Source of the DNA: Chloroflexota bacterium
GTDB taxonomy: Bacteria > Chloroflexota > Dormibacteria > Dormibacterales > Dormibacteraceae
Direction: 5' to 3'
NCBI GenBank assembly: GCA_005879985.1
Contig: VBIA01000173.1
Location: 1,562-65,561 of the forward strand
DNA: 64,000 nt
Of this stretch, positions 579 through 48,224 are shown one piece after another; within the stretch, counting starts at the first letter, position 1; every line of letters begins with the position of its first letter. The translations under genes were made by a program, and so were the position numbers. The notes under the pieces are model-generated. The model was not told where the DNA came from, searched no databases, and saw only the letters and a program-made list of their open reading frames with translations.

Positions 579-2113
579 GGGCACAGCCGGCACTTTCTGC
601 GCTCGGGCTGCGGATCGAAGCGGCCGGCGCGGATCTTTTCCGCCACTTCGATCGCGATCGTCCGAGCTTCGGCCTGCAGCTTCGGCACGCCTTCGAGGCG
701 AATCGCCGAGCCCTCCGCGAGGTAGACGACCTCGAGCTCGATCGGGTCGAGGCTCAGACCTGTCGACGCGCCGAGGGCGTACAGCGCCACCTGGAGGTCG
801 CGCCTGGCGCGCGCGAGCGGACGCCCGCTCTTGTAATCGATGATGAGCCAGCCCTCGTCGGTGCGATCGACCCGGTCGATCACTCCGTGCAGCGTGAAGC
901 CGTCCACCGCGGCGGAGAATTCCCGCTCCAGCAGATCTGGCGTGCGCTCGAATCCGCCGCTCGCGCGGAAGGCCTCGAGCTGCTCGAGGCCCAGGCGCCG
1001 AAAGGTGGCTGCGCGACGTGCATCCGGGAAGCCGGACGTCTCCCACACCTCGGCGTGCATCGCGTGCAGCCGTTCGGGCGTGATGGCGTTTCCAAGGCGC
1101 CGCTCCTCGCCGGCGCGGCGCAGCACCTCGTGCAAGATCGTGCCCTGCACAGCCTCGGCGTTCTGGGCCGCCGGCAGCCTCTCCCGATAGCGAAACCAAT
1201 ACTGCCGAGGACAATCCCGATAGCTCTGGATCGCACTGAAAGAAAGAACAAGGTCGCCCTTATCAACCTCGGCGCGGCTATTGACCTCCCCGCGAGCGGG
1301 GAGGGTCAGGGTGGGGAGAAACGCACTTGCTACAGAGCGTTCCAGCACAGCGCCCGACGCTCGGAGCTCCGCCAGGAATCGCGATTCCCGCCACCGGCGC
1401 CCTCCCTCGTAGTGCTCGGCGCGAGTCAGATACAGGCGCTTGCGCGCTCGCGTCATCGCCACGTAGAGCAGCCGCCGCTCCTCCGCGACCACGTCCTCTC
1501 GCCCGCGCACGAGCGGCTCGAGTACCGCCGGCGGCAGCACGAATCGCTGCGACCGTCCTGACTGCGGCAGCCTCCCCTCCACCAGCGACGGCACGAACAC
1601 CACATCGAACTCGAGTCCCTTGGCCTGATGGATGGTCATGACCGAGATCGCGTCGCCGCCGCGCTCGGGCGCCGCCGGCGCCTCGTCCTCTCCGGATAAA
1701 AGGACGAGGTCGAGATGAGCCATGTACGCGGCAAGTGAGTGGTTTGGACTTGAGTCGCAGAACTCCGCGATCGCCTCCGCCAACCTGCTGACATTGGCCG
1801 CCACGCGCGCCGCTTCGCTCGACTCAATGGTGGCGGACCGCCGGTCCAGGTAGCGCGTGCCGTTCATCAGCTCGAAGAGGAGATCGCGCACATCCATCGA
1901 CTGCGCAAGCGAGCTCAGCGCATCAACGAGCGCTTCCGAGCATTCGGGCGTCCGGGTTTTCACTCGGAACGCGGCGACCTGATCACTGGGGTCGTGCAGC
2001 ACACGCAGCATTGCGATGACGTCGCGGATCTCCGGCCGGTCGTAGACTCGGCAAGACGCCTCGCCTCGGCGGCGATCGCCCCGGCCTCGCCCACGCCATC
2101 CTCGCATCGCCAC
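548..2113 (-). CDS. C-terminal fragment of a UvrD/PcrA-type helicase fused to a PD-(D/E)XK (RecB/Cas4-like, 4-Cys) nuclease domain
   Basis: Helicase motif V (VMTIHQAKGLEFDVVFV) and motif VI (RRLLYVAMTRARKRLYL). Nuclease motifs GVIDRVD, IIDYKSG and QVALYALG, plus Cys in YRDCP and CRLCPYRLAC. Homology begins near YDRPEIRD (about 2050), not at the listed Met. Confidence 0.8.
   Translation of the reverse strand: MAMRGWRGRGRGDRRRGEASCRVYDRPEIRDVIAMLRVLHDPSDQVAAFRVKTRTPECSEALVDALSSLAQSMDVRDLLFELMNGTRYLDRRSATIESSEAARVAANVSRLAEAIAEFCDSSPNHSLAAYMAHLDLVLLSGEDEAPAAPERGGDAISVMTIHQAKGLEFDVVFVPSLVEGRLPQSGRSQRFVLPPAVLEPLVRGREDVVAEERRLLYVAMTRARKRLYLTRAEHYEGGRRWRESRFLAELRASGAVLERSVASAFLPTLTLPARGEVNSRAEVDKGDLVLSFSAIQSYRDCPRQYWFRYRERLPAAQNAEAVQGTILHEVLRRAGEERRLGNAITPERLHAMHAEVWETSGFPDARRAATFRRLGLEQLEAFRASGGFERTPDLLEREFSAAVDGFTLHGVIDRVDRTDEGWLIIDYKSGRPLARARRDLQVALYALGASTGLSLDPIELEVVYLAEGSAIRLEGVPKLQAEARTIAIEVAEKIRAGRFDPQPERRKCRLCPYRLACAEAL
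1285..1318. repeat. Copy A of a dispersed hairpin plus G-tract repeat, lying inside the helicase-nuclease ORF
   Basis: Perfect 9-bp inverted repeat CCTCCCCGC-GA-GCGGGGAGG (1285-1304) runs into GGGAGGGTCAGGGTGGGGAG. Related copies are at 17238, 17289 and 55326. Confidence 0.75.
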
Positions 2114-3081
2114 AGCTCGACGCGCCGGCCGGATCTGGTGGCCGACAGCTCCTTGGCAAGGCGCTCCGCGTTGTTGCCGATCAATGCCGCCGCGGCGGCG
2201 ACGATTCTCGCCGAGCTCCGCTGATTCTTGCCCAGCGTCACCGTCCGCGCATTCGAGAACCGGTCCAGGAACCGCTCCAGGCTCGCGCGCGACGCGCCAC
2301 GGAACCGGTAGATGCTCTGGTCGTCGTCGCCGACGACGAACGGCGCGCCGCCGAACGATACGAGCTCAACCAGCCGCTCCTGCGCGAGGTTGAGGTCCTG
2401 GTATTCGTCGACGAGCACGTGCGGGTACCGGCGGCGATACGCGGCCGCCACGCGCGGGTCGCTCGACAGCATCGCGACCGATCGCTCGAGAAGATCGTCG
2501 AAATCAAGCAGGCCGCGCTTGCGGCACTCGAGCTCGTAGGCCCGAAATAGGCGCACGCACGCATGCATGAGCGCGGCCCGCTCTGCGTCGTCCGCTGAGT
2601 CGGCCCACTCGTCGAGCCGTCGCAACGGGACCAGCTCTTGCTTCAGGCGCTCGAGCATCTGCAGCGCCGGCGCCACCAGGTCGTCCGGCCGCTCGTCACC
2701 GACCAGCGCCGCATCGCCGAGCTCCCACATGAGCTCCCGCGCGAGGATCCACCGCTCGGCGCCGCTCACGATCCGGAACCCTGCTGGCACCCCGACGCGC
2801 CAGCCGTCCGCGCGCAGCCAGCCCAGCGCGATCGCATGCACCGTGCCCACCGCATGCGCGTCCGCCCCGGCGAGGTCCTCGATGCGCTGGCGCATCTCCT
2901 GGGCGGCACGATCGGTGAAGGTCATGACCAGAATGGACGATGGGTCCAGTCCCGCGGCCACGAGCCGCCGGAATCTCTCGGCGATGACCGCGGTCTTGCC
3001 GGTGCCCGCTCCGGCGATGACGCGGACCGGCGTCGGGCTCAGCGCGGCGGCTTCGCGCTGACGCGCATCCAGACGCGTCAC
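1960..3081 (-). CDS. N-terminal fragment of the UvrD/PcrA-type helicase (motifs I-IV)
   Basis: AGAGTGKT (motif I), VDEYQD (II), VGDDDQSIYRFRGA (III), GKNQRS (IV). A GTG at 3081 overlaps the DUF721 stop as GTGA. Homology ends at about 2050 (..ARRLAES), after which the frame is junk until the stop at 1960. Confidence 0.8.
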   Translation of the reverse strand: MTRLDARQREAAALSPTPVRVIAGAGTGKTAVIAERFRRLVAAGLDPSSILVMTFTDRAAQEMRQRIEDLAGADAHAVGTVHAIALGWLRADGWRVGVPAGFRIVSGAERWILARELMWELGDAALVGDERPDDLVAPALQMLERLKQELVPLRRLDEWADSADDAERAALMHACVRLFRAYELECRKRGLLDFDDLLERSVAMLSSDPRVAAAYRRRYPHVLVDEYQDLNLAQERLVELVSFGGAPFVVGDDDQSIYRFRGASRASLERFLDRFSNARTVTLGKNQRSSARIVAAAAALIGNNAERLAKELSATRSGRRVELWRCEDGVGEAGAIAAEARRLAESTTGRRSATSSQCCVCCTTPVIRSPRSE

Positions 3082-3383
3082 GTCGGGGTCGAGCGCCCGA
3101 TGCGCACGCGCAGGATGCGGACGCGCCGGCCCAGGTCCATGCCGTTGAGCCGGGCGATCACGGTCTCGGCATCCAGCCGCAGCTGGTGCGCCAGCGCCGG
3201 GCTCGATGTGGTCACCATCAGCACGCCCGACTTGAGCTCGACCGCCTCGCAAAGCCGAGCGGGTTCTGGGCCGATCACGATGCGAAAGGCGACGGCCACC
3301 CGCATGCCCAGGAGCCGTCCTCCGCCCGGCTGGCGCCGGACCACCGTGGGGAGGATATTGCCCAGCTTATCCACAGGCTTCAA
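3078..3383 (-). CDS. DUF721 domain protein (DciA-like), in the usual position after recF
   Basis: About 100 aa, with the pattern ..IVIGPEPARLCEAVELKSGVLMVTTSSPALAHQLRLDAETVIARLN.. typical of DUF721. Its start overlaps the recF stop. Confidence 0.7.
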   Translation of the reverse strand: MKPVDKLGNILPTVVRRQPGGGRLLGMRVAVAFRIVIGPEPARLCEAVELKSGVLMVTTSSPALAHQLRLDAETVIARLNGMDLGRRVRILRVRIGRSTPT

Positions 3384-4452
3384 TTCGCCCCGAATTCACG
3401 CTCCACACGCGTGCACCCGTGATGAGATCCGCCGGAAACGGACCCATCTCGGCCGACGTGATGATGACCTGACCCTCGCCCGCCACTCTGCGCAGAAGGG
3501 CGGCGCGCCGCTCGGCGTCCAGCTCCGACAGGACGTCGTCCAGCAGGAGCACGGGCCGTTCACCGGCGCGCCTCGTGACGAGCGCCGCCTCAGCGAGCTT
3601 GAGGCTCACCACCGCGGTCCGCTGCTGCCCCTGGGAGGCGTAGCTTCGAGCGTCACGCCCGTCGAGCCGGATGAGCAGGTCGTCGTGATGAGGACCGATC
3701 GTTGTCGACCCCCTCCGCAAGTCGTCGCCAAGCGACTTTTCCACAGCATCTCCGAAGTTCTCGGGGGGTCCGATGTAGGCGATTTCGAGCCGTTCGCCGG
3801 CCGCGATTTCAGCGTGGCTTTCTGCCGCGTACGGCCGCAGCTCCTCGACCGCCCTGGCACGCGCGCCGGCTATGTCCGAGCCGTAAGCCACGAGCTCGGC
3901 GTTCCAGGCTTCCAACACGCCCGGCGCCTCCTCGCCGGCGGCGATCCTCTTGAGCAGGCTGTTGCGCTGCTCGAGCACCCGCCGGAGGGCGGCCAGGTTG
4001 CGCGCGTAGCCCGGCTCGACCTGCACCAGCATCTGGTTGAGGAAGCGGCGGCGCTGCTCGGGCCCCGCCTTGACCAGGCCGAGGTCGTCGGGCCAGAAGA
4101 GCGTCACCCGGAAATGGCCCGGCAGGTCGAAGCCACGGCGGCGGACACCGTCGACCTCGATGACGCGCCGCACTCGTTCGCCTTCTCCCTGCAGGGTGAT
4201 CGTCACCTCGAGCCCGCGACCCGCCGACTCCACCTCGGCGTGGATGCGGGCAGCAGGCGTCACGGGTCCGAGCAGCTCCTGGTCGCGCCTGGCGCGCGGC
4301 GACGAGGACAGCGCGAGCATCGCCACTGCCTCCAGCAGGTTGGTCTTGCCCTGCCCGTTCGCACCCACGAAAACGTTCACGCCGGGTCCAGGCTCCAGGT
4401 CGAGGTGTGCGTAGTTGCGGTGGTTGTTCAGTTCTAGGCGCTTGAGCTCCAC
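3367..4452 (-). CDS. recF: DNA replication/repair protein RecF
   Basis: N-terminal Walker A (VFVGANGQGKTNLLEAV), signature ASQGQQRT and Walker B (LLLDDVLSELD). Sits between dnaN and DUF721. Confidence 0.95.
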   Translation of the reverse strand: MELKRLELNNHRNYAHLDLEPGPGVNVFVGANGQGKTNLLEAVAMLALSSSPRARRDQELLGPVTPAARIHAEVESAGRGLEVTITLQGEGERVRRVIEVDGVRRRGFDLPGHFRVTLFWPDDLGLVKAGPEQRRRFLNQMLVQVEPGYARNLAALRRVLEQRNSLLKRIAAGEEAPGVLEAWNAELVAYGSDIAGARARAVEELRPYAAESHAEIAAGERLEIAYIGPPENFGDAVEKSLGDDLRRGSTTIGPHHDDLLIRLDGRDARSYASQGQQRTAVVSLKLAEAALVTRRAGERPVLLLDDVLSELDAERRAALLRRVAGEGQVIITSAEMGPFPADLITGARVWSVNSGRIEACG

Positions 4453-4465
4453 GCCGGAAGCCCGA

Positions 4466-5542
4466 CTACGACATGGCCACCCGCACAGGCATGATCACGT
4501 AGAGGTAGTGCTCCTTGCCCGGCGGGCGGATCAGCCCTGGGCTGAGCGGACCGTCGAAGAGCAGCTCGACCTGATCCTCGCCGATCACCCCCAGGGCGTC
4601 TAGGACGTAGCGGGCATTGAACGCAATCTGGATCTCCGATCCCTCGACGTCGGCAGGCATCTCGGCCTTGCTGTCCCCCACCTCGTTCGTCGTCGCCGAC
4701 AAAACGACGGCGCCGGCGTGGGCTTTGACGCGGATGACGTTGGCGCTGTCGCGAGCGAAAAGCGACACCGCTCGCACGGTTTGCGTCAGCTCAGACGTGG
4801 CCAGCCGGACCTTGGTCGAGCTCTTGCTGGGGATAACTTGTGAGTAATTTGGATACTTTCCGTCGATAAGCCGAGACGTCAACTCCGAGTTGCCGGCTTT
4901 GAAGAAAATCTGGTTGCGGGCCTTCGAGATGATGATCTCGACCTGGCCAGGCTCGCCCTTCAGCACGCGGCTCAGCTCGGCCAGCGCTCGTGCCGGCACG
5001 ATGAGACTTGCGTCGAGCTCAGCGCCGCCGCTCGCCGGAAGCTTGCGCACCGCGAGCCGGTGCCCGTCGGTGGCGGCCAGCGTCAGGTTTCCCTGCTCGA
5101 CCGCCTTGATCAGCTCATCGAGCGGCACCTGCAGCCGGTCGCCCTCGTCCGGTCGCGGACCTGGCGGGAACTCCTCGGCCTCGATGCACTTGATGTGGGT
5201 GTCGAAGCGTGCGCATCGCAGTGAAAGTGACTGCGTCGCGCCGTCGAGCGTCATCTCGAGTTCCTCGTCGGGAAGCGTGCCCACGAAATCGGTGAGCAGG
5301 CGCGCCGGAGCGGTGGTGCTGCCCTCCATGGCGACCTCGGCCGGCACCAGCTTGCGGATGCCGATCTCGAGGTTGGTCGCGCTGAGCGCAAGTCCTTCAG
5401 GCGTGGTCTCGATGAGGATGTTGTTCAGGATAGGCAGCGTCGTCCGGCTCGAGATCGCGCGCGACACGACCTGAAGCGCCTGCCCTAGCACTGAGGGTCT
5501 GCAGGTCACCTTCATCTGCGTTGCGATGGCTTTAGCACTCAC
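4466..5542 (-). CDS. dnaN: DNA polymerase III beta sliding clamp, with an apparent internal gap of about 20 aa
   Basis: SSRTTLPILNNILIE, ATDGHRLAVRK, SRLIDGKYPNY and MPVR are clamp signatures. The GTG at 5542 has a GGGGGA Shine-Dalgarno 8 nt upstream; an alternative ATG is at 5515 (MKVTCRP). Confidence 0.9.
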   Translation of the reverse strand: MSAKAIATQMKVTCRPSVLGQALQVVSRAISSRTTLPILNNILIETTPEGLALSATNLEIGIRKLVPAEVAMEGSTTAPARLLTDFVGTLPDEELEMTLDGATQSLSLRCARFDTHIKCIEAEEFPPGPRPDEGDRLQVPLDELIKAVEQGNLTLAATDGHRLAVRKLPASGGAELDASLIVPARALAELSRVLKGEPGQVEIIISKARNQIFFKAGNSELTSRLIDGKYPNYSQVIPSKSSTKVRLATSELTQTVRAVSLFARDSANVIRVKAHAGAVVLSATTNEVGDSKAEMPADVEGSEIQIAFNARYVLDALGVIGEDQVELLFDGPLSPGLIRPPGKEHYLYVIMPVRVAMS

Positions 5543-5783
5543 GACAGTTGTCCCCCGTTGTTTCCGGTCTTACTAATTGATTCAATCCGTAACGGATAAC
5601 AGTAAGCGCTGTGGGTACTGTGGATATAGAGATCCTTTACAGATCGCGACTCGCCGTGGATAACCGCTTCGGAGCCGGTGCGCATCCCCCTGCGGGCTGT
5701 GGCACTGGTGGGAAAAAGACGCCGGCGGGCCGATAATCCAATCGCTTTCCCCACCACTTCGGAAGAAGATGTGGAAACGCGCA
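5543..5783. promoter_or_regulatory. dnaA-dnaN intergenic region with DnaA-box-like 9-mers and the most AT-rich stretch nearby (possible second oriC module or DUE)
   Basis: TGTGGATAT at 5619-5627 and CGTGGATAA at 5655-5663 each have one mismatch to TGTGGATAA. ACGGATAA lies at 5592-5599. The flanking sequence cttactaattgattcaatcc is AT-rich. Confidence 0.5.
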
Positions 5784-7166
5784 TCACTCTGCGTAGAGGT
5801 GCTCGCGGATTGCCTGGACCTCGAAGCGCAACCTCTCGTCCTCCTTCAGCTCATTGGCGATCTTCTCGATCGAGTGAAGCGCAGTCGTGTGGTCCCTGCC
5901 TCCGAACGCCTTGCCGATTGCAGGAAGTGACGACGGCGTCTCCTCGCGAACCAGAAACATCGCCACCTGGCGGGGGAAGACGATGTGCTTGTCTCGGCGC
6001 TTGCTCTTCATGTCCTCGAGGGTGATGTTGTAGAAGTCGGCGACGAGCATCTGGATGCGGTCGACGTTGATGGGCTTGCGCGTGCCGGCCGGGATGATGT
6101 CGGCCAGCAGCCGCGCCGCCTCGTCCTCGTCGACGGACCGCTGATGAACCGCGGCAAATGCCTGCACCCTCGTCAACGCCCCCTCGAGCTCGCGGATGTT
6201 GCGTTGCACCTTGTGCGCGATGAAGTTCAGGACTTCCTCGGGGACGAGGCTCGTACGGCCGCCCAGCTTGGAGTGGAGGATCGCGAGTCGAGTTTCGAAG
6301 TCTGGCGGCTGGATGTCGGCGATGAGGCCCCACTCGAATCGCGACCGCAGCCTGTCCTCCAGCGTTGGAATCTCTTTCGGCGGACGATCGGACGAGATGA
6401 CGATCTGCTTGTTGATCTCGTGCAGCGCGTTGAAGGTGTGGAAGAACTCTTCCTTCGTCCTGTCCTTTCCGGCAAGGAACTGGACGTCGTCGATGAGCAG
6501 CACGTCGACCGTGCGGTACTTGTGCCGGAACTCGCCCATTCGCGCGGTGGCGATGGAGCTGATCACCTCGTTGGTGAACTGCTCGGACGTCAGGTAGACG
6601 ACGCGCTTGCGCGGGAAGCGGTCGTGCACCTCATGGCCGATCGCGTGCATCAGGTGCGTCTTGCCCAAGCCCACGCCTCCGTAGAGGAACAGGGGGTTAT
6701 AGCTGTCGCCCGGCGCTTCGGCCACGGCCTTGGCGGCCGCATGGGCGAACTGAGAGTTGTGACCGACGACGAACGACGAGAAACGAAAGCGCACGTTGAG
6801 CTCTGATGGGGCAGGCGCGATGTCCGGCTCCGCTCCCTTCTCGGGCCCATTCTCATGACCGTTCGCGCTGAGGCCGTCGTCATCCTCGCCATCGGTCGCT
6901 ACCAGCGGCGGTCGATGGCTGCTCGGCGAGATGACGAAGTCGATACCGACCTCGGCGCCGGTCACAGCCTGCAACGTCTCCTGGATGAGGCCCGAGAAAC
7001 GATCCTCGAGCCAATCCTTCGCGAGCTTGCTCGGGACTCCGATGCGGAAAGTGCTGCCGTCCGCCGACACGACCGACGTGTTCTTGAGCCACATGTCGTA
7101 CGTGCGCTTGGCCAGCTGGAACCGGAGCTCCTCCTGGACCTGGGACCAGATCTGATCCTGGTTCAC
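5784..7166 (-). CDS. dnaA: Chromosomal replication initiator protein DnaA
   Basis: AAA+ Walker A (LFLYGGVGLGKTHLMHAIG), Walker B (LLIDDVQFL), sensor and box VII (IVISSDRPP) and the C-terminal DNA-binding domain (IVFPRQVAMFLVRE..GGRDHTTALHS). Confidence 0.97.
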   Translation of the reverse strand: MNQDQIWSQVQEELRFQLAKRTYDMWLKNTSVVSADGSTFRIGVPSKLAKDWLEDRFSGLIQETLQAVTGAEVGIDFVISPSSHRPPLVATDGEDDDGLSANGHENGPEKGAEPDIAPAPSELNVRFRFSSFVVGHNSQFAHAAAKAVAEAPGDSYNPLFLYGGVGLGKTHLMHAIGHEVHDRFPRKRVVYLTSEQFTNEVISSIATARMGEFRHKYRTVDVLLIDDVQFLAGKDRTKEEFFHTFNALHEINKQIVISSDRPPKEIPTLEDRLRSRFEWGLIADIQPPDFETRLAILHSKLGGRTSLVPEEVLNFIAHKVQRNIRELEGALTRVQAFAAVHQRSVDEDEAARLLADIIPAGTRKPINVDRIQMLVADFYNITLEDMKSKRRDKHIVFPRQVAMFLVREETPSSLPAIGKAFGGRDHTTALHSIEKIANELKEDERLRFEVQAIREHLYAE

Positions 7167-9448: not shown

Positions 9449-10087
9449 ATGAGATCTGCAGAAGGTCGAGGGCGCACTCTCGACGAGGCGGTTGACGCCG
9501 CCCTGATCGAGCTGGGGGAGACGCGACGCGACGTCGACGTCAGGGTCATTAGGGAAGCCCCCGACGAGACCGTGGTCGAGGTGACGGTGATGGAGGCGTC
9601 CCCGGCCGCCGGCGCGTCGCCGGTCAACGGCAAGGCGGAGACCGTGCGAACGCTGCTGGAAGGCCTGCTCAAGCACATGGGCGTGCGTGCTTCTGTGCAG
9701 GTGCGCGCCGGCAGCGACCCGATCACCCTGGACGTCACCGGTCGCGATCTCGGCGCGTTGATCGGCTGGCGCGGCGAAACGCTGCGGGCTCTGCAATCAG
9801 TGACGAACGTGATGGTGGGTAAGCACCTCGACGAGGGCGAGCGCGTCATCGTCGACGTCGAGCGGTACCGGCAGCGACGCGAGCACACTGTGCGCGAGAT
9901 CGCGCTGCGCGCTGCGCGCCAGGTGAAGATGACCGGCGATGCGATCACGCTCGACGCGATGCAAGCCTTCGAGCGGCGCGCGATCCACTTAGCGCTCGAG
10001 GGCGATCCTGACGTGACCAGCTCCAGTATCGGCGAAGACCCCGATCGCCGCGTCGTCGTCGGGCCGCGCAAGCCGGCCGACGCGTAG
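9449..10087 (+). CDS. jag: Jag/KhpB-type RNA-binding protein (Jag_N, KH and R3H domains)
   Basis: GRTLDEAVDAALIELG (Jag_N), IGWRGETLRALQ (KH GXXG-like) and AFERRAIHLAL (R3H). Conserved position after yidC. Confidence 0.85.
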   Translation: MRSAEGRGRTLDEAVDAALIELGETRRDVDVRVIREAPDETVVEVTVMEASPAAGASPVNGKAETVRTLLEGLLKHMGVRASVQVRAGSDPITLDVTGRDLGALIGWRGETLRALQSVTNVMVGKHLDEGERVIVDVERYRQRREHTVREIALRAARQVKMTGDAITLDAMQAFERRAIHLALEGDPDVTSSSIGEDPDRRVVVGPRKPADA

Positions 10088-19439: not shown

Positions 19440-20731
19440 TGCCCTACCTGGTCCATTCGCCGCAAGAGCGCGAGGAGATGCTGGCGGCGATCGGAGTCGA
19501 ATCGATGGACGCGCTCCTCGGCGACATACCGCCGTCGCTCCGCATTCACGATCTGAAGCTCGCGCGGGGCCTCTCCGAGTTCGAGACGATGGCCGCCGTC
19601 CGCGATCTCGCGGCGGCGAACCGAGTCTTCGCGGATCGATTGACCTTTCGGGGCGGCGGCATCTACAAGCGGTTCATCCCGACGGCGGTTGCCGCCGTCA
19701 CCGGCAAGCCGGAGTTCTACACCGCGTACACGCCCTACCAGCCCGAGGCTAGCCAGGGCACGCTGCAGGCGATCTACGAGTTCCAGACGCTCATCGCCGA
19801 GCTCACCGCGATGGACGTCGCGAACGCATCGCTCTACGACGGCGCGACCGCCGTCGCAGAGGCTTCGATGATGGCTCGCGTCCACACCGGCCGCGACGAG
19901 ATCCTTGTCGCGGGCTACGTGCACCCCGAGTCCATCGAAGTGCTGCACACCTTCAGCGAGGGCCGCGGCATGAAGGTGAAGCGCGGCGACCAGCCCACCA
20001 ACAAGACGGCAGCTGTCGTCTTCCAGCAGCCGGACTTCCTTGGTCTGCTCGTCGATGCCAGGGGCCTCACGGAAAGGGCGCACGCCGCCGGCGCGCTGGC
20101 CATCGCGTGCGTCGACCCGATCAGCCTCGCCATCCTTGCCCCGCCCGGTGAGTACGGCGCCGACATCGCCGTCGGTGAGGGACAGCAGCTCGGACTCAGC
20201 GCCAGCTATGGCGGCCCGCACGTCGGCTTCATCGCATGCACGAAGGAGCTCGTGCGCCGGCTTCCCGGGCGCCTCATCGGCAGCTCGCATGACGCTAAAG
20301 GCAGGCGCGGTTTCGTGCTCACGCTCACCGCGCGCGAACAGCACATCCGCCGCGAGAAGGCCACCTCCAACATCTGCACGAACCATTCGCTGTGCGCGCT
20401 GGCCGCGGCGGTCTACATGACCTACATGGGAGAGGCCGGCATGCGCCAGGTCGCGGAGGTCAGCTTCAAACGCGCGCACGCGCTGGCCGATCGGCTCGCG
20501 GCGCTGCCCGGCTGGGAGCTCGCTTTCCCCGAGCGCCAGTTCGTCAACGAGTTTCCAATCATCGTGCCGAAGCCCAAGCCGCTGCTCCGCAAGCTGGCGA
20601 GGAAGGGAATCCTCGGCGGGCTCGAGGTCGGACGCTGGTTCCGCGACCTGAGAGGCGTCCTCACGTTCACCTGCACCGAGGTCAACGACCCGGCCGCGAT
20701 CGACCAGCTGGTGGAGGCGCTGAGCGCGTGA
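19439..20731 (+). CDS. gcvPA: Glycine dehydrogenase (decarboxylating) subunit 1
   Basis: FRGGGIYKRFIP, YTPYQPEASQGTLQAIYEFQT and TAREQHIRREKATSNICTN. Confidence 0.92.
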   Translation: MPYLVHSPQEREEMLAAIGVESMDALLGDIPPSLRIHDLKLARGLSEFETMAAVRDLAAANRVFADRLTFRGGGIYKRFIPTAVAAVTGKPEFYTAYTPYQPEASQGTLQAIYEFQTLIAELTAMDVANASLYDGATAVAEASMMARVHTGRDEILVAGYVHPESIEVLHTFSEGRGMKVKRGDQPTNKTAAVVFQQPDFLGLLVDARGLTERAHAAGALAIACVDPISLAILAPPGEYGADIAVGEGQQLGLSASYGGPHVGFIACTKELVRRLPGRLIGSSHDAKGRRGFVLTLTAREQHIRREKATSNICTNHSLCALAAAVYMTYMGEAGMRQVAEVSFKRAHALADRLAALPGWELAFPERQFVNEFPIIVPKPKPLLRKLARKGILGGLEVGRWFRDLRGVLTFTCTEVNDPAAIDQLVEALSA

Positions 20732-20895
20732 CCGAGCCTCTTTCTTTCGAGCTCAGCCGCCCAGGCGCCGAGGCGCCGCGTCTGCCGGCCGCAGGTGTGC
20801 AGGCTCCCGCACCGGAGGACGCGCTCTCCAAAGATGCGCTCCGCGCGCATCCGCCCGACCTACCGCGTCTCAGCGAGCCCGAGATCATGCGCCAC
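20728..20895 (+). CDS. gcvPB: N-terminal fragment of glycine dehydrogenase subunit 2 (first ~56 codons, frame 1)
   Basis: A GTG at 20728 overlaps the gcvPA stop. [13 protein letters not shown]...[12 protein letters not shown] matches the usual GcvPB N-terminus. Homology then jumps to another frame at about 20896. Confidence 0.6.
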
Positions 20896-22129
20896 CAACG
20901 AGGCGGCGGCCGCGCTGCCGGGATTCGCCGGACTGCATCCGTATCAGGACGAGGAGACGGTGCAGGGCGCGCTCGAGCTCATGTACCGGCTGGAGCGCGC
21001 GCTGTGCGCGATCGTCGGCGTCGACCGGGTGACGCTGCAGCCGGCTGCCGGCGCCCACGGCGAGTGGACGGCCCTCCGGATGATCCAGGCATATCACCGC
21101 TCGCGCGGCGACAAGCGCTCAGAGGTCCTGGTCCCGGACTCGGCGCACGGAACCAACCCGGCGAGCGCGGCACTGAGCGGCTTCCAGGTGGTCGAGGTGC
21201 GCTCGGGGCCTGACGGCCGCATCAGCCTGGCCGACCTGGAGTCGAAGCTGTCGCCGCAGGTCGCGGCCCTGATGCTGACAAACCCCAACACCTTGGGGTT
21301 GTTCGAGCGCGAGATCCTGGATGTAGCCGAGATGGTTCACGCCACCGGGGCGATGCTCTACTACGACGGCGCCAACCTCAACGCCTTCATGGGCGTGGCC
21401 CGGCCGGGCGACATGGGCTTCGACGCGGTGCACATGAACTTGCACAAGACGTTCACCACCCCGCACGGCGGCGGCGGCCCCGGCGCAGGCCCGGTGGGCG
21501 TGAAGGCCGACCTCATCCCGTTCCTCCCACACCCGACGGTCGAGCAGTCCGACGGCCACTACACGTTTGATTTCAAGCGGCCGAAGTCGATCGGCCGCGT
21601 GCGCAGCTTCTACGGCAACTTCGGAATGCTCGTCCGCGCCTACACGTACATCCTGGCCATGGGCGGCGACGGCCTGACGCAGGCATCGCTCGACGCTGTT
21701 CTGTCCGCGAACTACCTGCGCAAGCAGGTCGAGGGCGTGCTCGACCTGCCCCATGAGGGCCCGTGCATGCACGAGTTCGTGGCCAGCGCGCACAACCTGG
21801 CGCCGCAAGGCGTGAAGGCCCTGGACGTGGCCAAGGGGCTGCTCGAGAGGGACTTTTATGCCCCCACGGTCTACTTCCCGCTCGTGGTGGCGGAGGCAAT
21901 CATGGTCGAGCCGACTGAGACCGAGAGCAAGGCCACCCTCGACGCCTTCGCGGCCGCCCTGAAGGAGATCGTGGAGCAGGCTCGGACCGACCCCGCGGCG
22001 CTCCACGCCGAGCCCCACAGCCTGCCCGTCGGGAGGCTCGACGAGGTGGGCACGGCGCGCCGGATCACGGCTTATCTGACCGGCCAGAGCGAGGATCCGG
22101 TTTTGAGGTGGAAGCGAGTTCAGAAATAG
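20795..22129 (+). CDS. gcvPB: Glycine dehydrogenase (decarboxylating) subunit 2, main fragment (homology from about 20897)
   Basis: [52 protein letters not shown] (PLP-Lys region) and the C-terminal domain are present. Residues before NEAAA in this ORF are out-of-frame junk. Confidence 0.85.
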
Positions 22130-22312: not shown

Positions 22313-23671
22313 ATGGCGTACACAGCCGAGCAGATCCAGGTCCTCGAGGGCCGCGAGCACGTTCGGCGGCGTCCGAGCATGTACATCGGCTCGACCAGCG
22401 CGACCGGTCTTCACCACCTGGTCTACGAGGTGGTCGACAACGCAGTCGACGAGGCTCTGGCGGGCTACTGCACGCGCATCGTCGTCACCCTCCACAAGGA
22501 CGGCAGCTGCTCGGTCGATGACAACGGCCGTGGCATCCCGGTGGACGTCCATAAGAAAGAAGGTCTCTCCGCGCTCGAGCTGGTGATGACTCGGCTTAAC
22601 GCCGGCGGCAAATTCGGCGGAGGCGGCTACAAGGTTTCGTCAGGCCTGCACGGCGTGGGCGTCTCGGCAGTGAACTTCCTCAGTGCGAAGCTGGAGGTAT
22701 GGGTCCACCTCGGCGGCAAGATCTACCACCAGGCCTACGAGCGGGGCGTGCCGAAGGCCCCGGTCAAGGCCATCGGCAAGACCGACCACCGCGGCACCAT
22801 CGTGCGGTTCTGGCCCGACCCGCAGATCTTCCCCGACGTCACCCTCGACCGCGAGGTCATCCGCCACCGCCTGCGCGAGATGGCCTATCTGAACAAGCGG
22901 CTGGAGATCGCACTCTCTGAGGAGGAGCTCGCGATCACGAGCACTTTCTACTTCGAGGGTGGCATCGTCTCGTTTGTCCGCGCGCTCAACCGCGGCAAGG
23001 CCGTCGTGAACTCGATGCCTTGCTATGTCGACCGCGAGATCGAGGGCACGCAGGTCGAAGTCGCGCTGCAGTACAACGACACGTTCGTCGAGAACGTGAT
23101 CGCCTTCGCAAACACCATCCACACCATCGAGGGCGGCAGCCACCTCACTGGTTTTCGCTCCGCGCTCACCAACGTCCTGAACCGCTACGCGCGGAAGGCC
23201 ACCATCCTCAAGGAGTCCGACCCGAACCTCACCGGTGACGACGTGCGCGAGGGATTGACGGCGGTCATCAGCGTCAAAGTGCTCGAGCCGCAGTTCGAAG
23301 GTCAGACCAAGGGAAAACTTGGCAACGCCGAGGTGCAGGGCCACGTTTCGCTGGCGCTGACCGAGGGACTCACGCAGTACCTCGAGGAGAACCCGTCAGA
23401 AGGCCGGCGCATCGTCGAGAAGTCGCTGACCGCTTCGCGCGCGCGTGAGGCGGCGCGCAAGGCGCGCGATCTGGTGCAGCGCAAGAGCCTGCTCGAGTCG
23501 AGCACGCTTCCTGGGCGATCCTCCCGATGCGCGGCAAGATTCTCAACGTCGAGAAGGCGCGCCTCGACAAGGTGCTGGGCTTCGAGGTCATCCGCGACCT
23601 CATCACCGCGATGGGCGCAGGCATCGGCGACAACTTCAACATCGAGAAGATGCGCTACCACCGGATCGTGA
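22313..23671 (+). CDS. gyrB: DNA gyrase subunit B, N-terminal fragment (ATPase and transducer); homology ends at about 23515
   Basis: [54 protein letters not shown] and [12 protein letters not shown]. After ..ESSTLPG the frame no longer resembles GyrB. Confidence 0.9.
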
Positions 23672-24090
23672 GCATGACCGACGCCGACGTCGACGGCAGT
23701 CACATCCGCACGCTGCTGCTCACATTCTTCTTCCGGCATTTCCCGGAGGTCATCGACCGGGGCTACCTCTATATGGCGCAGCCGCCGCTGTACAAGGTGT
23801 CGAAGGGCAAGCAGGTCGTGTGGTGCCGGTCCGAGGCCGACCGCGAGCGCGCGCTGAAGCAGCTCGGCAAGAACGCAGAGGTCCAGCGCATGAAGGGACT
23901 CGGCGAGATGAACGCCAATGAGCTTTGGGATACCACCATGAACCCGGAGACGCGCGTCCTTCTGCGTGTGCAGGTCGACGACGCCGCGGCGGCCAACGAG
24001 ATATTCGAGAAGCTGATGGGCCCTGAGGTCGAGCCACGCAAGAAATTCATCCAGGCGCACGCCAAGAGCGTCCGGAACCTAGACATCTAG
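23527..24090 (+). CDS. gyrB: DNA gyrase subunit B, C-terminal fragment (rest of Toprim plus tail), in a different frame
   Basis: (AILP)[49 protein letters not shown] and ..NLDI terminus. Confidence 0.9.
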
Positions 24091-26349: not shown

Positions 26350-28763
<2,414 letters not shown>

Positions 28764-28767
<4 letters not shown>

Positions 28768-29048
28768 GCTCCGTCGGCCCCTGGCTTCTGGTGTTCGGCG
28801 CGGCCGTGATCGTGGTGGAAGGCACGATCAGCGCGGTATGGAGCGTCAAGCTGGCAAGGCAGGGCCGGGCGCTGGCGGCGATGCTCGAACGCGAACGCGG
28901 CCTGGTCCAGGGCGACGTCGCACGCCTGCATGACACGCTTGAAGAGACGCGCCGCCTGTGGGAGCCATGGCGGCGGGCGTTGCGCTGGCTGCGACATCCG
29001 TTCGTGGCCGCTCTGCTTGCCTCGTTCTGGAGGCGTGTGGCGGGCTAG
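28764..29048 (+). CDS. Hypothetical small membrane protein
   Basis: GTGA overlap with the gyrA stop; one N-terminal TM segment ([12 protein letters not shown]). No recognisable motif. Confidence 0.4.
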
Positions 29049-29084
29049 CTGACGCCGGGTCCGTTAGGCCAAACTACTGGCGGC

Positions 29085-29732
29085 ATGCGTGAGGTAGAGA
29101 GCCACGATCCCGCCACGTCCCTGAAGCTGGCCGAAGAGTCGGCGGTGGCGAGGGAACGAGCCCGGATGGCCCGCGAGCTGCACGACGGCCTGGCAACGGA
29201 CCTGGCCGGGGCGATCTCACTCTTCAAGGTCTACCTCGAGGGCCACCGCGAGGCGAGCGACACGACACTTCGCAATGTCTTCGAGATCCTCGAGCGGATG
29301 CTGAAGCAGGTGCGGGAGACCCTGGCGGAGCTGCGGCCGCGGCCGATTGGGCCAGAGGGCCTCGTGGGCGATCTGCGCCACCAGGCCGAAGAGTTCGCGC
29401 GCCTGTACGCGATCCGCGTCGAGATTGCGACCAGCGGCACCGAGGACATGCTGCCGCATCCGCAGCGCGAAGTCGTCAACCTGGTGGTCCGTGAGGCGTT
29501 GACCAACGTCCGAAAGCACTCCGGTTCGTCGATCTGCCGGGTGCGCATGCATTTCGCCGCGCGACCGTTCCTTGTCGAGGTCTCGGACGAGGGCAAGGGA
29601 TTCGTATCGTCACAGGCCCACGGCTACGGGCTGGTGGGAATGCGCGAGCGCGCCGCGGGCATCGGAGGCAGGCTCGAGGTGGTGAGCACGGAAGGTCGCG
29701 GCACGACTGTGTTTCTCTTCGGACCGCACTAA
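29085..29732 (+). CDS. Soluble histidine kinase core (HisKA_3 plus HATPase_c), with no sensor domain
   Basis: H-box ARELHDGLATDL, N-box REALTNVRKH and GYGLVGMRERA (G2 box). Confidence 0.8.
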   Translation: MREVESHDPATSLKLAEESAVARERARMARELHDGLATDLAGAISLFKVYLEGHREASDTTLRNVFEILERMLKQVRETLAELRPRPIGPEGLVGDLRHQAEEFARLYAIRVEIATSGTEDMLPHPQREVVNLVVREALTNVRKHSGSSICRVRMHFAARPFLVEVSDEGKGFVSSQAHGYGLVGMRERAAGIGGRLEVVSTEGRGTTVFLFGPH

Positions 29733-29850
29733 ACAGAGCAGCGCGGCCGAGCGCCACGACTTTCCTCATCGTGGTGCTCGGTGTGTGTTTGCCGGCCTTC
29801 TGGTGGTCCCCGACCGCGTGGTCGTTCGGACCGCACCAGACATCCACCCC

Positions 29851-30459
29851 TCACCACACGCATACCGGTATCCGGTGCGGCGCTCGCTGGTTCAGCTTCC
29901 GCTTCACCGAGCTGATCAGCGCATCCGTCTCCACGTGACCTGCTTTGATCGCCCGAGCGATCTCCTCGCGTGACAGGCCGCAGCTCATGAGCTGCACAAC
30001 CTCAGCTTCGGCCTCGGTCATCCGGCCGAGCGGACCGCGCAGCGCCGAGATGATCGGGACCAGTGCGGTGCCCAGGCCGATCGCGTACTGCACGTCTTCT
30101 TCCGAGTACCAGTAGTCGCGCCTGCAGCCGAGCACAAGCAGGCCGATGGGCCGCTGCCCGGGCTCACCGATCGGGGTGTACATGATGGCGGGCCAGTCGA
30201 GCTCCCAGTCGAAGCCGGCGGCGGGAGTTGTGTAGGGAAAGACGGAGTTGACGACCACCGGCCGCTGCTCGAAAAGCGCGCGGCGTGACAGCGGCTGCAG
30301 GGGATGAGCCTGCAGCAGCCGCCGCGATATCTCTGATGCTGCAACCGGCTGCAGCGCCCCTCCGCGTAGGAAGCCGACGACCCAGCGGTCGTGGGACAGG
30401 ACTTCGAGGGCCAGCCCCAGTCGGCGCCTGGCTTCCTGTAAATCAAGGAGCTGGCCCAT
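29851..30459 (-). CDS. LuxR-family transcriptional regulator with a GAF-like N-terminal domain
   Basis: C-terminal HTH: MTEAEAEVVQLMSCGLSREEIARAI...SSVKRKL. About 140 aa of N-terminal sequence is not a receiver domain; the GAF-like assignment is a guess. Confidence 0.6.
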   Translation of the reverse strand: MGQLLDLQEARRRLGLALEVLSHDRWVVGFLRGGALQPVAASEISRRLLQAHPLQPLSRRALFEQRPVVVNSVFPYTTPAAGFDWELDWPAIMYTPIGEPGQRPIGLLVLGCRRDYWYSEEDVQYAIGLGTALVPIISALRGPLGRMTEAEAEVVQLMSCGLSREEIARAIKAGHVETDALISSVKRKLNQRAPHRIPVCVW

Positions 30460-30593
30460 GCAGCGAGGCTATGCACATCCGGATTCGCTGACCTCAGCCC
30501 AGCTTCATCGTTTCCTCAGGAATCGCTGAACTTTTGGCGCGCCGGGCGCGAGCCGGTTGGGCCTCACTGAATTCTGTTAGCGTCCTGCCGGGG

Positions 30594-42825: not shown

Positions 42826-42846
42826 CGAAACGATCGAAGAGGAAAA

Positions 42847-42868
42847 GGACCGCTGGCCCAAGCGGTCC
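42847..42868. terminator. Intrinsic terminator hairpin between convergent genes
   Basis: GGACCGCT-GGCCCA-AGCGGTCC (8-bp stem). On the minus strand it is followed by TTTTCCTCTT. Confidence 0.65.
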
Positions 42869-42885
42869 CTCACTCCCCCTTTGCT

Positions 42886-43032: not shown

Positions 43033-43116
43033 TAGTTCACCATCCTTTAATCAGTATCCGTTGCCCGGGCGACTCGGCCCATTCTAGGGGCCCTCCAACT
43101 CGAATTCAACCCGAGA

Positions 43117-45130: not shown

Positions 45131-45140
45131 GCGAACGAGT

Positions 45141-45518: not shown

Positions 45519-45533
45519 TGAAGATCCACTATA

Positions 45534-46076: not shown

Positions 46077-46306
46077 TGGGGCTAGATGTAGTGTGATTTC
46101 CCCAGACTGTATACAGAATGTGGGTAACTGGCAACTACAAGCGCCACCCGACCTGTAGCCGTCATTCGAGCTCCAGGGCGAGCTCGCGTCTTCCCCGCTG
46201 CGGCCGCCCACGCCGCCTTCGCACCTGGAAGCTGACAGTCAGGCTGAGGCCGCGCTGAGCCCGTGGTGAGGATGGGCGTCGCGGGCTGGCGGGTGGGACC
46301 TCGCCC

Positions 46307-46702
46307 TCAGCCGACCGCCAGCCGGCGCACCATCCTGGCCACGCCCTCCAAAGGCACTCCCACCGGGCAGGCTGCGGACGCGGCCTCCCAATCCGGTTCG
46401 TCGCCATCGACGTCACCGGCCGCGTCACCGAGGCCTGAGTAAAGGCGCGCGTAGGAAGAAGCCAGGTCCGGTAGGCGCGTGCGCGCCAGCCGTCCCGCGG
46501 CGAAAGCGCACAGCCCGCAGTTGATGCATCCGATGAGCTGAGGGTGCCTCTCCTGTTCCTCAGGCGTCAGCGGCACCAGTCCATCCGCCGCGTACATCTC
46601 GAGCAGCGGCTTCAGCTGCGAGCGCGCGGGCTTCAATCGCCTGCGTGTCAGGTGCATGCCGTACGCGAGCGCGAGCTTGGCGAGCGAATCCGCGCGGCCC
46701 AT
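46307..46702 (-). CDS. Small Cys-rich protein, probable 4Fe-4S cluster protein coupled to the glpA-like oxidoreductase
   Basis: CINCGLC followed by ..ACPVGVP. The ATG at 46702 overlaps the upstream TAA as TAATG. The rest of the 323-aa ORF is shadow sequence. Confidence 0.5.
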   Translation of the reverse strand: MGRADSLAKLALAYGMHLTRRRLKPARSQLKPLLEMYAADGLVPLTPEEQERHPQLIGCINCGLCAFAAGRLARTRLPDLASSYARLYSGLGDAAGDVDGDEPDWEAASAACPVGVPLEGVARMVRRLAVG

Positions 46703-46925
46703 TACGCGAACAGTCCTCGCGTCGCGCCCTGGACGAGCTCTTCCTGCGCCCATCCGGCATGGGTCAGGACGGGCGCGCGTCCAAGCCACGACGATTGCAC
46801 AAAATCGCGGACCGCGTCGAATCGCTGGGACGCGCTCCATCCGAGCTCGCGGCCGATGATCTCGGCGGCGCGCATGACGCACGTCGCGCCGGCGCAAGGT
46901 CCACCCGCAAGGCTGACACGCCGGG
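46702..46925 (-). CDS. C-terminal fragment of the GlpA-like oxidoreductase (end of the BFD-like [2Fe-2S] region plus tail), in a different frame
   Basis: RRVSLAGGPCAGATCVMRAAEIIGRELGW... resembles the RRTRLGMGxCQGxxC segment of GlpA/GlpD-type enzymes. The upper boundary is approximate. Confidence 0.55.
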
Positions 46926-48224
46926 ACGGCCCGCGGCCGCGCCATCGAGGACCTCGGCCGCGCGACATCCGTGCCTGCTCTGCAGCTTGACCGCGGCAAG
47001 CGCAGAGATCCCGCAACGTCTTGCGAGCTCTTCCGCGGGCTCCATGTCGGATTCACTTCCGGGCAGGGGGCGCGTAGCCGTGACGCAGGGTGACTGATGT
47101 CCGAGCTTGCGACAAACCGCGTCCGATGTCTCCTCGGCCATGAGCCGGTACATCGACAGCTTGCCGCCGGCGATGGTGACGAAACCGTCGACGCCATCGG
47201 CCGCGTGATCGAAGATCCGGTACCTGCGCGACAGCTCGTCTTCGTAGCGGCGCCACTTGAAGAGGGTCGGCCGCACACCGGTGGTCGTGCGCACCGGACG
47301 GAACTTGCGAATCGCGGGGAAGACGCGCTCGAAACCCTGCAGCAGGTAGTCGACCTCGTCGCGCATGACCTCGACCGAATCGAGGTCGCCGTAGAAGTCG
47401 TCGTCGGTCGTGCCGAGGAGCGTGAAGCCCGCGTGCGAGACCATCAGCAGGTCGCGACCGTCGATCGACTCCCCGCTGATCGCGAACCGGGAGATGCGGT
47501 GGGGGTAGATGATGTGGATTCCCTTTGCGGGACGCAGCTGCACGTCGACGCCGGCCATGTGCCCGACCTCGGGAACCCACGGGCCGGCGGCGTTCACCAC
47601 GACCTTTGCGCGCGCCTCGCTGTACACGCCGTCCGAAGTCCGGTAGCGCACGCCGATGACGGCGCCGCCATCGCGCAGCAGCTCCACCACCTTGGTGTGG
47701 TTCAAAGCGCGAGTGCCGTTCGAAACCGCGTCCTGAACGTTCGCGAACACGAGCCGGTGCGGGTCGACGCCCCATTCCTCCATGGTCACCGCGCCGACCA
47801 TGTCGCGCGTGAGCCCGGGCTCGATCTGGAGCGCCTCCTCCGGCGTCAGCCGGGTGTGCGGGTGTGACTTCTTCAAGGGCTGGAAGCGGTCGTAAACCTC
47901 CATCGCCGTCTCCATCCGCTCGATGTTGTTCTTGTCGTGCGGAAGGACCGGGATGAGGAAGAGGACGCGATAGACGATGTTGCGCGCGATCGTGACGATG
48001 TGGCCCGCGTCCGTGGTCGAGAGGCGCGTCGTGTCCCAGTCGAACTCGAGGTAGCGCGGCCCGCCGTGGATCATCCAGCTAGACGAGCCGCTGGTGCCCG
48101 CGCCCCAGTCGCCTTTCTCGAGGAGCAGCACCGACAGCCCGCGAAGCGAGAGGTCGCGCGCGATGCCCGCGCCGGTGACACCGCCGCCGATGATCACGAC
48201 GTCGTGAGCAGAGGGCTGGCTCAC
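46764..48224 (-). CDS. FAD-dependent glycerol-3-phosphate dehydrogenase-like oxidoreductase (GlpA/GlpD family), main fragment
   Basis: DVVIIGGGVTGAGIARDLSLRG (FAD motif), GTSGSSSWMIHGGPRYLE and IAGGKLSMYRLMAEE. Homology ends near ..AEVLDGAAAGRPG (about 46925). Confidence 0.8.
   Translation of the reverse strand: MSQPSAHDVVIIGGGVTGAGIARDLSLRGLSVLLLEKGDWGAGTSGSSSWMIHGGPRYLEFDWDTTRLSTTDAGHIVTIARNIVYRVLFLIPVLPHDKNNIERMETAMEVYDRFQPLKKSHPHTRLTPEEALQIEPGLTRDMVGAVTMEEWGVDPHRLVFANVQDAVSNGTRALNHTKVVELLRDGGAVIGVRYRTSDGVYSEARAKVVVNAAGPWVPEVGHMAGVDVQLRPAKGIHIIYPHRISRFAISGESIDGRDLLMVSHAGFTLLGTTDDDFYGDLDSVEVMRDEVDYLLQGFERVFPAIRKFRPVRTTTGVRPTLFKWRRYEDELSRRYRIFDHAADGVDGFVTIAGGKLSMYRLMAEETSDAVCRKLGHQSPCVTATRPLPGSESDMEPAEELARRCGISALAAVKLQSRHGCRAAEVLDGAAAGRPGVSALRVDLAPARRASCAPPRSSAASSDGARPSDSTRSAILCNRRGLDARPS

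What the first reader, a model, noticed from the sequence alone, without database searches (positions are those of the whole stretch)
2030..46940. Recurrent pattern: six conserved genes each lack a 20-40-residue conserved block at a single junction, four with a frameshift
gyrB (~23515), gcvPB (~20896), the UvrD-type helicase-nuclease (~2050) and the glpA-like oxidoreductase (~46920) each read cleanly up to one point. Each then resumes in another frame, and a stretch that is invariant in characterised homologues is simply absent. dnaN (~5100) and gyrA (~28585) appear to lack about 20 residues in frame. Neighbouring genes (dnaA, recF, serA, fabF, plsX, gcvT, gcvPA, EF-G) look intact. Loss of the GyrB Toprim motif is hard to reconcile with a viable cell, so the simplest explanation is technical: collapsed scaffold gaps, removed N runs or local misassembly. 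If that is so, the unusual fusions and truncations elsewhere in this window need the same caution. If the gaps are real, this would be striking decay of core genes.
Basis: partly seen in the sequence, partly recalled or inferred. Interest (0 to 1): 0.75.

Follow-up and report, generated by a model that had tools for sequence, protein, structure and literature searches.

The report
Six collapsed assembly gaps in genes
Six core genes in this soil-bacterium sequence each lack 69-118 bases at one point, but every other public assembly of the same population has those bases, so the gaps are assembly artefacts and not gene decay.

Summary
Compared with 37 near-identical public contigs (97.6-99.96% nt) that tile the whole window, the window has exactly six private indels. 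All are deletions:
- 118 nt at w2045/6 (UvrD/PD-(D/E)XK helicase)
- 69 nt at w5097 (dnaN)
- 86 nt at w20895 (gcvPB)
- 109 nt at w23515 (gyrB Toprim)
- 75 nt at w28590 (gyrA)
- 85 nt at w46928 (GlpA-like DAO)

Four shift the frame and two do not. No relative shares any of them, and every relative encodes the full-length protein. The truncated GyrA and DnaN are not on record anywhere, and the gyrB and gyrA junction sequences are absent from JGI metagenome contigs.

The window switches strain haplotype exactly at the dnaN and gyrA junctions. At the DAO junction it carries four private third-codon-position differences within 20 nt.

Sister scaffolds of the same Dormibacterota population have N-run gaps replacing 30-149 nt, plus their own private N-less deletions. 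Their event density (0.08/kb) matches the window's (0.09/kb). Unscaffolded MEGAHIT contigs have none.

Verdict: these are collapsed scaffold gaps, either N runs removed or contig ends merged. They are not biology. The rest of the window is clean. I could not find the source record or reads, so the exact software step is inferred.

The parts
548..3081 (-). UvrD-type helicase fused to a PD-(D/E)XK nuclease. It is 883 aa in relatives. In the window it is broken by a private 118-nt deletion at w2045/2046 (2-nt positional ambiguity) that shifts the frame.
   Evidence: Window ORFs 548-2113 and 1960-3252 are in different frames. L087-L090 and L110 all carry 118 extra nt at this point. The intact 883-aa protein has UvrD-helicase, UvrD_C and PDDEXK_1 domains. 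The lost peptide is SGVSLAEIAVLCRTNAIAAPVAAALAAARLPHVVFGGHGL.
4466..5542 (-). dnaN (sliding clamp). It is 358 aa here and 381 aa in relatives. There is a private in-frame 69-nt deletion at w5097/5098 (ambiguity w5093-5097).
   Evidence: L004, L087, L088, L089, L110 and L112 carry 69 extra nt, and L006 reads through intact. The Pfam central-domain match is 34-116/116 in the window and 2-116/116 when intact. Left flank: 0 mismatches to L087 and 26 to L089. Right flank: 0 to L089 and 20 to L087. The strain switch is therefore at the junction. No gene with the 358-aa product is on record.
20728..22129 (+). gcvPB (glycine dehydrogenase subunit 2). It is 495 aa in relatives. A private 86-nt deletion at w20895/20896 shifts the frame.
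   Evidence: L001 and L110, two stretches of one contig (VBFT01000146.1), carry 86 extra nt. The lost peptide is YSRMASLNYSISEQFYPLGSCTMKYNPVA. The frames are shown.
22313..24090 (+). gyrB. It is 628 aa in relatives. A private 109-nt deletion at w23515/23516 (ambiguity w23514-23515) removes the start of the Toprim domain and shifts the frame.
   Evidence: L001 and L003 carry 109 extra nt and are otherwise identical over +/-400 nt. Alignment to E. coli GyrB shows residues 407-441 are missing. The Toprim profile match is 29-82 in the window and 1-82 when intact. The junction sequence is absent from JGI metagenome contigs. JGI contig L002 starts 12 nt beyond the block.
26350..28767 (+). gyrA. It is 805 aa here and 830 aa in relatives. 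There is a private in-frame 75-nt deletion at w28590/28591.
   Evidence: L002 and L103 carry 75 extra nt, and L104 starts 21 nt before the block. Left flank: 0/400 mismatches to L002 and 16 to L103. Right flank: 1/400 to L103 and 44 to L002. The strain switch is therefore at the junction. The 805-aa product is not on record, and the junction sequence is absent from JGI contigs.
46702..48197 (-). FAD-dependent oxidoreductase (DAO plus DAO_C, GlpA-like). It is 526 aa in relatives. A private 85-nt deletion at w46928/46929 (ambiguity w46925-46928) shifts the frame.
   Evidence: All nine spanning relatives (L092-L096, L098, L099, L101, L102) carry 85 extra nt. The lost peptide is LVCRCEPLTEAELSYSARREQVRTLADA. 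The DAO_C match is lost from the window ORF. Four window-private mismatches, spaced 3-6-3 nt apart, lie within 20 nt of the junction.

Best explanation
The six junctions are places where separately assembled short-read contigs of one soil Dormibacterota population were joined into a scaffold, and the small unassembled gap of 69-118 nt was closed up. Either the N run was removed, or the scaffolder merged the two ends on a few matching bases.

The organism almost certainly has intact gyrB, gyrA, dnaN, gcvPB, helicase-nuclease and DAO genes.

Shown: the deletions are private to this sequence. The missing DNA exists in every other assembly of the population. Three junctions are haplotype discontinuities. 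Sister scaffolds have the same kind and density of defects.

Inferred: the specific step (N stripping or zero-gap merging) and the assembler.
For: 1. Thirty-seven contigs at 97.6-99.96% identity tile w1-64000. The only window-private indels are the six deletions, with no private small indels.

2. Every spanning relative has the block: 5 for the helicase, 6-7 for dnaN, 2 for gyrB, 2-3 for gyrA and 9 for DAO. gcvPB is spanned by one contig, fetched twice. Gene calls in relatives are full length: 883, 381, 495, 628, 830 and 526 aa.

3. A true polymorphism behaves differently. The 49-nt intergenic indel at w48241-48259 is shared with L095.

4. No gene with the truncated GyrA or DnaN product is on record. 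The gyrB and gyrA junction sequences, allowing 0-30 filler bases, are absent from JGI metagenome contigs.

5. The strain switches exactly at the dnaN and gyrA junctions. At the DAO junction four private differences with 3-nt periodicity abut the join.

6. In about 110 kb of scaffold-type sister records (ENA 'CRIT18-1...scaffold' records and NCBI VBFT01000146.1/025.1) there are:
- 7 N-run gaps of 10-136 N. Four could be sized, and they replace 30, 59, 76 and 149 real nt.
- 2 private N-less deletions: 40 nt in dnaN of L004, and 54 nt in the helicase of L110.
That is 0.08 events/kb, against 6/64 kb = 0.09/kb in the window. MEGAHIT k141 contigs show none.

7. The window has no N at all. If it had the same mix of gap types, P is about 0.006-0.01 (and the counts above).

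8. Junction microhomology sums to 13 nt against 4.7 expected (P = 0.008). This fits end-merging on short overlaps.

9. The meadow population was assembled with IDBA_UD at about 10x coverage per sample from strain-diverse populations (PMC7305173).
Against: The source record and reads were not found, so no N run or read pile-up was seen directly at any junction.

Three junctions (helicase, gcvPB, gyrB) show no haplotype discontinuity, because the available relatives are identical on both sides.

Excess microhomology is also what real microhomology-mediated deletions would show.

Most of the lost blocks encode recognisable motifs, which random coverage gaps do not obviously predict. This was measured for only three genes, and gyrA contradicts the trend.
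Confidence: 0.92

Rival explanations
1. The deletions were made after assembly by sequence processing. Examples are automated excision or masking of stretches, or a reference-guided consensus that drops zero-coverage stretches. On this view they do not come from scaffolding of contigs.
For: The window has no N, while sister scaffolds do. The blocks are short and cleanly bounded. Several encode conserved motifs. The tool description says some public stretches are masked in one collection.
Against: Cutting pieces out of a correct contig would not produce strain switches exactly at the dnaN and gyrA junctions, nor the private variant cluster at the DAO junction. It would not produce excess microhomology either. 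N runs in the 80 GTDB gyrB loci are ordinary 100-N gaps outside gyrB. The gyrB block is not the most nucleotide-conserved part of the gene, and the gyrA block is poorly conserved, so a similarity-based filter is not indicated. A mapping-based consensus could still give strain switches.
Confidence: 0.05
2. All six deletions are real. The sequenced lineage is a recently decaying or defective subpopulation that has lost parts of core genes through microhomology-mediated deletion.
For: Junction microhomology is above chance. The deletions are clean, with no N.
Against: gyrB, gyrA and dnaN are essential in bacteria generally (established knowledge). Four lesions are frameshifts that remove catalytic or structural cores. 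No second copy of any lost block is in the window. The flanks are 99.5-99.9% identical to intact relatives with no other indels, so there is no sign of relaxed selection. No other assembly or gene catalogue entry has any of the six alleles. Two junctions join different strain haplotypes.
Confidence: 0.02
3. Only the two in-frame deletions (DnaN minus 23 aa, GyrA minus 25 aa) are real variant alleles. The four frameshifts are artefacts.
For: In-frame losses could in principle be tolerated. The GyrA block lies in a poorly conserved C-terminal segment (5th percentile).
Against: These are the very two junctions where the strain haplotype switches at the join. The DnaN block is among the most conserved in the protein (97th percentile) and removes the first about 32 positions of the central-domain profile. 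Neither product is on record. With six deletions of arbitrary length, two in frame is exactly the chance expectation of one in three.
Confidence: 0.01

Closest known systems
Intra-scaffold gaps and local misassemblies in short-read metagenome-assembled genomes (IDBA-UD-type scaffolds of strain-diverse, roughly 10x populations)
   Same: The missing pieces are short (tens to about 150 nt) and private to one assembly. They fall at strain-variable sites and occur at about 0.1 per kb. The same population's public scaffolds show N-run gaps and N-less deletions of the same size (assembly method from PMC7305173).
   Different: Here no N marks the gaps, so they read as clean deletions and frameshifts. 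Whether the Ns were stripped or never written could not be determined.
Pseudogenes of reductive genome decay (for example Mycobacterium leprae or recent endosymbionts; from general knowledge)
   Same: Frameshifted and internally deleted conserved genes lie next to intact neighbours.
   Different: In real decay, close relatives or repeat assemblies share the lesions, many small lesions accumulate, and indispensable genes such as gyrB, gyrA and dnaN are spared. None of these holds here.
Programmed recoding: ribosomal frameshifting or translational bypassing, as in phage T4 gene 60 (from general knowledge)
   Same: The reading frame changes at a single point inside a topoisomerase-subunit gene.
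   Different: Recoding keeps all codons in the mRNA. Here 23-39 codons, including the start of the GyrB Toprim domain, are absent from the DNA.

Membership tests
Assembly/scaffolding artefact (collapsed gap) | The lesion is private to one assembly, and independent assemblies of the same population are intact | tested here: met
   All six deletions are absent from every spanning relative: 5 (helicase), 6-7 (dnaN), 2 (gyrB), 2-3 (gyrA) and 9 (DAO). gcvPB is spanned by a single contig. The truncated products and junction sequences are not on record.
Assembly/scaffolding artefact (collapsed gap) | Sequence context is discontinuous across the join, because different strain consensus lies on the two sides | tested here: met
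   Met at dnaN and gyrA. There is a partial signal at DAO, with four private third-position differences within 20 nt. The test is uninformative at the helicase, gcvPB and gyrB junctions, where relatives are identical on both sides.
Assembly/scaffolding artefact (collapsed gap) | The same class and density of defect occurs in scaffolds of the same population made by scaffolding pipelines, and not in unscaffolded contigs | tested here: met
   Sister scaffolds carry 7 N gaps plus 2 private N-less deletions in about 110 kb. The MEGAHIT k141 contigs carry none.
Assembly/scaffolding artefact (collapsed gap) | The source scaffold has a gap (N run or AGP line) at the position, and reads contain the missing block | not testable with these tools
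   The source record was not retrieved. No read data are available.
Genuine pseudogenisation / genome decay | Lesions are shared by close relatives or reproduced in independent assemblies | tested here: not met
Genuine pseudogenisation / genome decay | There are accompanying signs of relaxed constraint, such as other small indels or stops in the affected genes | tested here: not met
   The flanks align to intact relatives at 99.5-99.9% with no gap openings.
Programmed frameshift / translational bypass | All codons of the full-length protein are present in the nucleic acid | tested here: not met
   Between 69 and 118 nt are absent. E. coli GyrB 407-441 has no counterpart. No copy of any block lies elsewhere in the window.
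Insertion in relatives (intein, intron or mobile insert) rather than deletion here | The extra block is absent from distant homologues and from family profiles | tested here: not met
   The blocks align to E. coli GyrB and to Pfam Toprim positions 1-28 and DnaN central-domain positions 2-33. They are present in 79 GyrB, 27 DnaN and 39 GyrA homologues.

The most novel reading that the evidence does not exclude
Some or all of the six deletions are real alleles of a co-occurring subpopulation. One example would be microhomology-mediated deletions carried on non-viable or relic DNA, or on a lineage complemented in some unknown way. That would mean soil metagenomes capture abundant genomes with broken gyrase and clamp genes.
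Probability: 0.02. Interest if true: 0.55.

Novelty: not a real feature. Interest (0 to 1): 0.06.

Why it matters
It matters as quality control, not as biology. The window should not be read as evidence of core-gene decay, split genes or recoding in Dormibacterota. Gene calls at the six sites should be replaced by the intact forms seen in relatives: 883, 381, 495, 628, 830 and 526 aa.

The check also bounds the damage. The whole 64 kb was compared with independent assemblies, and no other private indel exists. Other features of this window are therefore not undermined by the same artefact.

More generally, it shows that N-less collapsed gaps in metagenome scaffolds can mimic clean deletions of conserved motifs. 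Public sister records of this population, including an NCBI MAG contig, carry similar private defects.

Tried and rejected
1. Hypothesis: the gaps mark de Bruijn-graph crossings at the most conserved DNA blocks shared with other taxa. This was not supported. The gyrB block is not the region sharing the most or longest exact matches with 80 other genomes. The gyrA block is at the 5th percentile of protein conservation. The blocks also vary between strains.

2. Searching for the source record failed by several routes:
- Exact-protein look-ups returned only other assemblies.
- The truncated GyrA and DnaN are not on record.

3. I looked for provider masking as the cause. N runs in the fetched GTDB loci are two ordinary 100-N gaps, not in gyrB.

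4. I looked for translocated copies of the lost blocks in the window and found none.

5. Two look-ups found no exact match:
- w48232-50319(+), which turned out to be an antisense ORF opposite the real EF-G-like gene.
- The long-ORF version of ParB.

6. Contig ends of other assemblies near the junctions are suggestive only. L002 starts 12 nt beyond the gyrB block and L104 starts 21 nt before the gyrA block. That is 2 of about 45 ends against about 0.24 expected, by my own rough count.
Full report
**What is in the window.**
The window is 64 kb, 66% G+C, and contains no N. It carries a replication-origin neighbourhood and housekeeping genes:
- rpmH-rnpA-yidD-yidC-jag, dnaA, dnaN, recF, a DciA-like gene and a UvrD/PD-(D/E)XK helicase-nuclease
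- parAB
- gcvT-H-PA-PB, gyrB, plsX, fabF and gyrA
- an EF-G-like gene and a GlpA-like DAO oxidoreductase

The closest GTDB GyrB is from a Dormibacterales MAG at 73% aa identity. Near-identical contigs come from soil metagenomes. They include ENA records named CRIT18-1_SAMN089028xx and the NCBI MAG GCA_005880815.1.

**Checking the observation.**
Three-frame translation shows gyrB reading '...LLESSTLPG' and then resuming in another frame at '[15 protein letters not shown]'. Against E. coli GyrB, residues 407-441 have no counterpart.

I used proteins of the window that are intact (PlsX, DnaA, RecF, the EF-G-like protein and others) as exact-match handles. This fetched 37 public contigs that are 97.6-99.96% identical to the window and together tile it from base 1 to 64000 (blastn).

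The census gives exactly six indels that are private to the window, and all are deletions:

| Position | Gene | Deletion |
|---|---|---|
| w2045/6 | helicase-nuclease | 118 nt |
| w5097 | dnaN | 69 nt |
| w20895 | gcvPB | 86 nt |
| w23515 | gyrB | 109 nt |
| w28590 | gyrA | 75 nt |
| w46928 | DAO | 85 nt |

The lost peptides are listed.

Pfam shows the consequences:
- The Toprim match is cut from profile positions 1-82 to 29-82.
- The DnaN central-domain match is cut from 2-116 to 34-116.
- The DAO_C match is lost.

**Are the deletions real?**
Every relative that spans a junction has the missing block and a full-length gene: 883, 381, 495, 628, 830 and 526 aa. The relatives come from different samples and assemblers: NCBI records, JGI contigs, MEGAHIT k141 contigs and ENA scaffolds.

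A genuine polymorphism in the same window behaves differently. A 49-nt intergenic indel at w48241-48259 separates the window from eight contigs but is shared with L095 from GCA_009772695.1.

No gene with the 805-aa GyrA or the 358-aa DnaN product is on record in the gene-position collection. The gyrB and gyrA junction sequences, allowing 0-30 filler bases, do not occur in the JGI metagenome contigs. None of the lost blocks occurs elsewhere in the window. Outside the six sites the window aligns to relatives without a single gap opening, so there is no background of decay.

**Signatures of a join.**
- **dnaN:** the 400 nt to the left are identical to L087 (26 mismatches to L089). The 400 nt to the right are identical to L089 (20 mismatches to L087).
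- **gyrA:** the left flank is identical to L002 (16 mismatches to L103). The right flank has 1 mismatch to L103 and 44 to L002.
- **DAO:** four differences from all nine relatives lie within 20 nt of the join, spaced 3-6-3 nt. These look like third-codon-position variants of another strain and not random errors.
- **Helicase, gcvPB and gyrB:** the available relatives are identical on both sides, so the test is uninformative.

So the window changes strain exactly at two junctions and shows a partial signal at a third.

Junction microhomology totals 13 nt against 4.7 expected from random deletions of the same lengths (P = 0.008). This fits merging of contig ends on a short overlap. It would also fit real microhomology-mediated deletion.

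**The same artefact in sister assemblies.**
Scaffold-type records of this population contain N runs of 10-136 N. Four of these could be sized, and they stand in for 30, 59, 76 and 149 real bases (L004, L102, L110; L108 also has N runs). They also have private N-less deletions of their own. L004 lacks 40 nt of dnaN, which splits that gene. NCBI contig VBFT01000146.1 (L110) lacks 54 nt of the helicase.

That is nine events in about 110 kb, or 0.08 per kb, against six in 64 kb (0.09 per kb) in the window. The unscaffolded MEGAHIT contigs show none. JGI contig L099 has one private 57-nt deletion.

The window differs only in having no N run at all. If it had the sister scaffolds' mix of gap types, that would have probability about 0.006-0.01 (counts above). 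This suggests its gaps were closed up or its Ns stripped.

The population was assembled with IDBA_UD from 2 x 250 bp reads at about 10x per sample, from populations with high within-sample nucleotide diversity (PMC7305173). Those conditions produce many small gaps.

**Why conserved motifs?**
Measured against homologues in 80 GTDB loci, the DnaN block is at the 97th percentile of conservation and the GyrB block at the 91st. The GyrA block is at the 5th. The other three blocks contain recognisable motifs, but I could not score them.

I tested whether the gyrB block is where other genomes share the longest exact matches, which would explain graph tangles. It is not. The association with conservation is therefore partial, and I do not rely on it. 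Local strain divergence around dnaN and the gyrA 3' end (6-10%) is at least as plausible a cause of the contig breaks.

**Conclusion.**
What remains inferred is the exact processing step, because neither the source record nor its reads could be retrieved. No other private indel exists in the window, so the artefact is confined to these six points.

Noticed in passing
L001:9292-9400 and L003 (the block missing at window 23515): The intact GyrB of this population has the Toprim motif VEGLSAGG in place of the usual VEGDSAGG. Among 80 GTDB homologues, 72 have D, 3 have E, 2 have P, and A and N occur once each.
   Followed up: partly
window 4700-5950 (dnaN) and 28590-30461 (gyrA 3' end and downstream): These are local hot spots of strain divergence: 6-10% between contigs that are over 99% identical elsewhere. 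The contigs show mosaic patterns. This fits either recombination in the soil population or chimeric consensus assembly.
   Followed up: partly
window 48241-48259: A net 49-nt intergenic indel lies between the EF-G-like gene and the DAO gene. The window and L095 (GCA_009772695.1) have the short form, and eight other contigs have the long form. It is a real polymorphism and served as a control.
   Followed up: yes
L110 (NCBI VBFT01000146.1) at window 1878-1931 and 9994-10069; L004 at window 5312-5348 and 4079-4108; L099 at window 51801-51851: Public sister assemblies have private defects of their own. L110 has a 54-nt in-frame loss in the helicase and 22 N standing for 76 nt. L004 has a 40-nt loss that splits dnaN and 20 N in recF. 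L099 has a 57-nt loss in the M24 peptidase gene.
   Followed up: partly
window 48232-50319 (+) versus 48253-50277 (-): A 695-aa antisense ORF overlaps the real 674-aa EF-G-like gene almost exactly. Long shadow ORFs like this are common in this 66% G+C window and can mislead ORF-based reading.
   Followed up: yes
window 38391: Two independent MEGAHIT contigs (L104 and L105) both end at window position 38391. This suggests a recurrent assembly-graph break there, although the window itself is continuous and agrees with L103, L106 and L107.
   Followed up: no
window 3081-3370 (between recF and the helicase gene): Relatives have a small gene with a DciA (PF05258) match between recF and the helicase-nuclease. 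Its called length varies between contigs: 75, 98, 101 or 105 aa.
   Followed up: no
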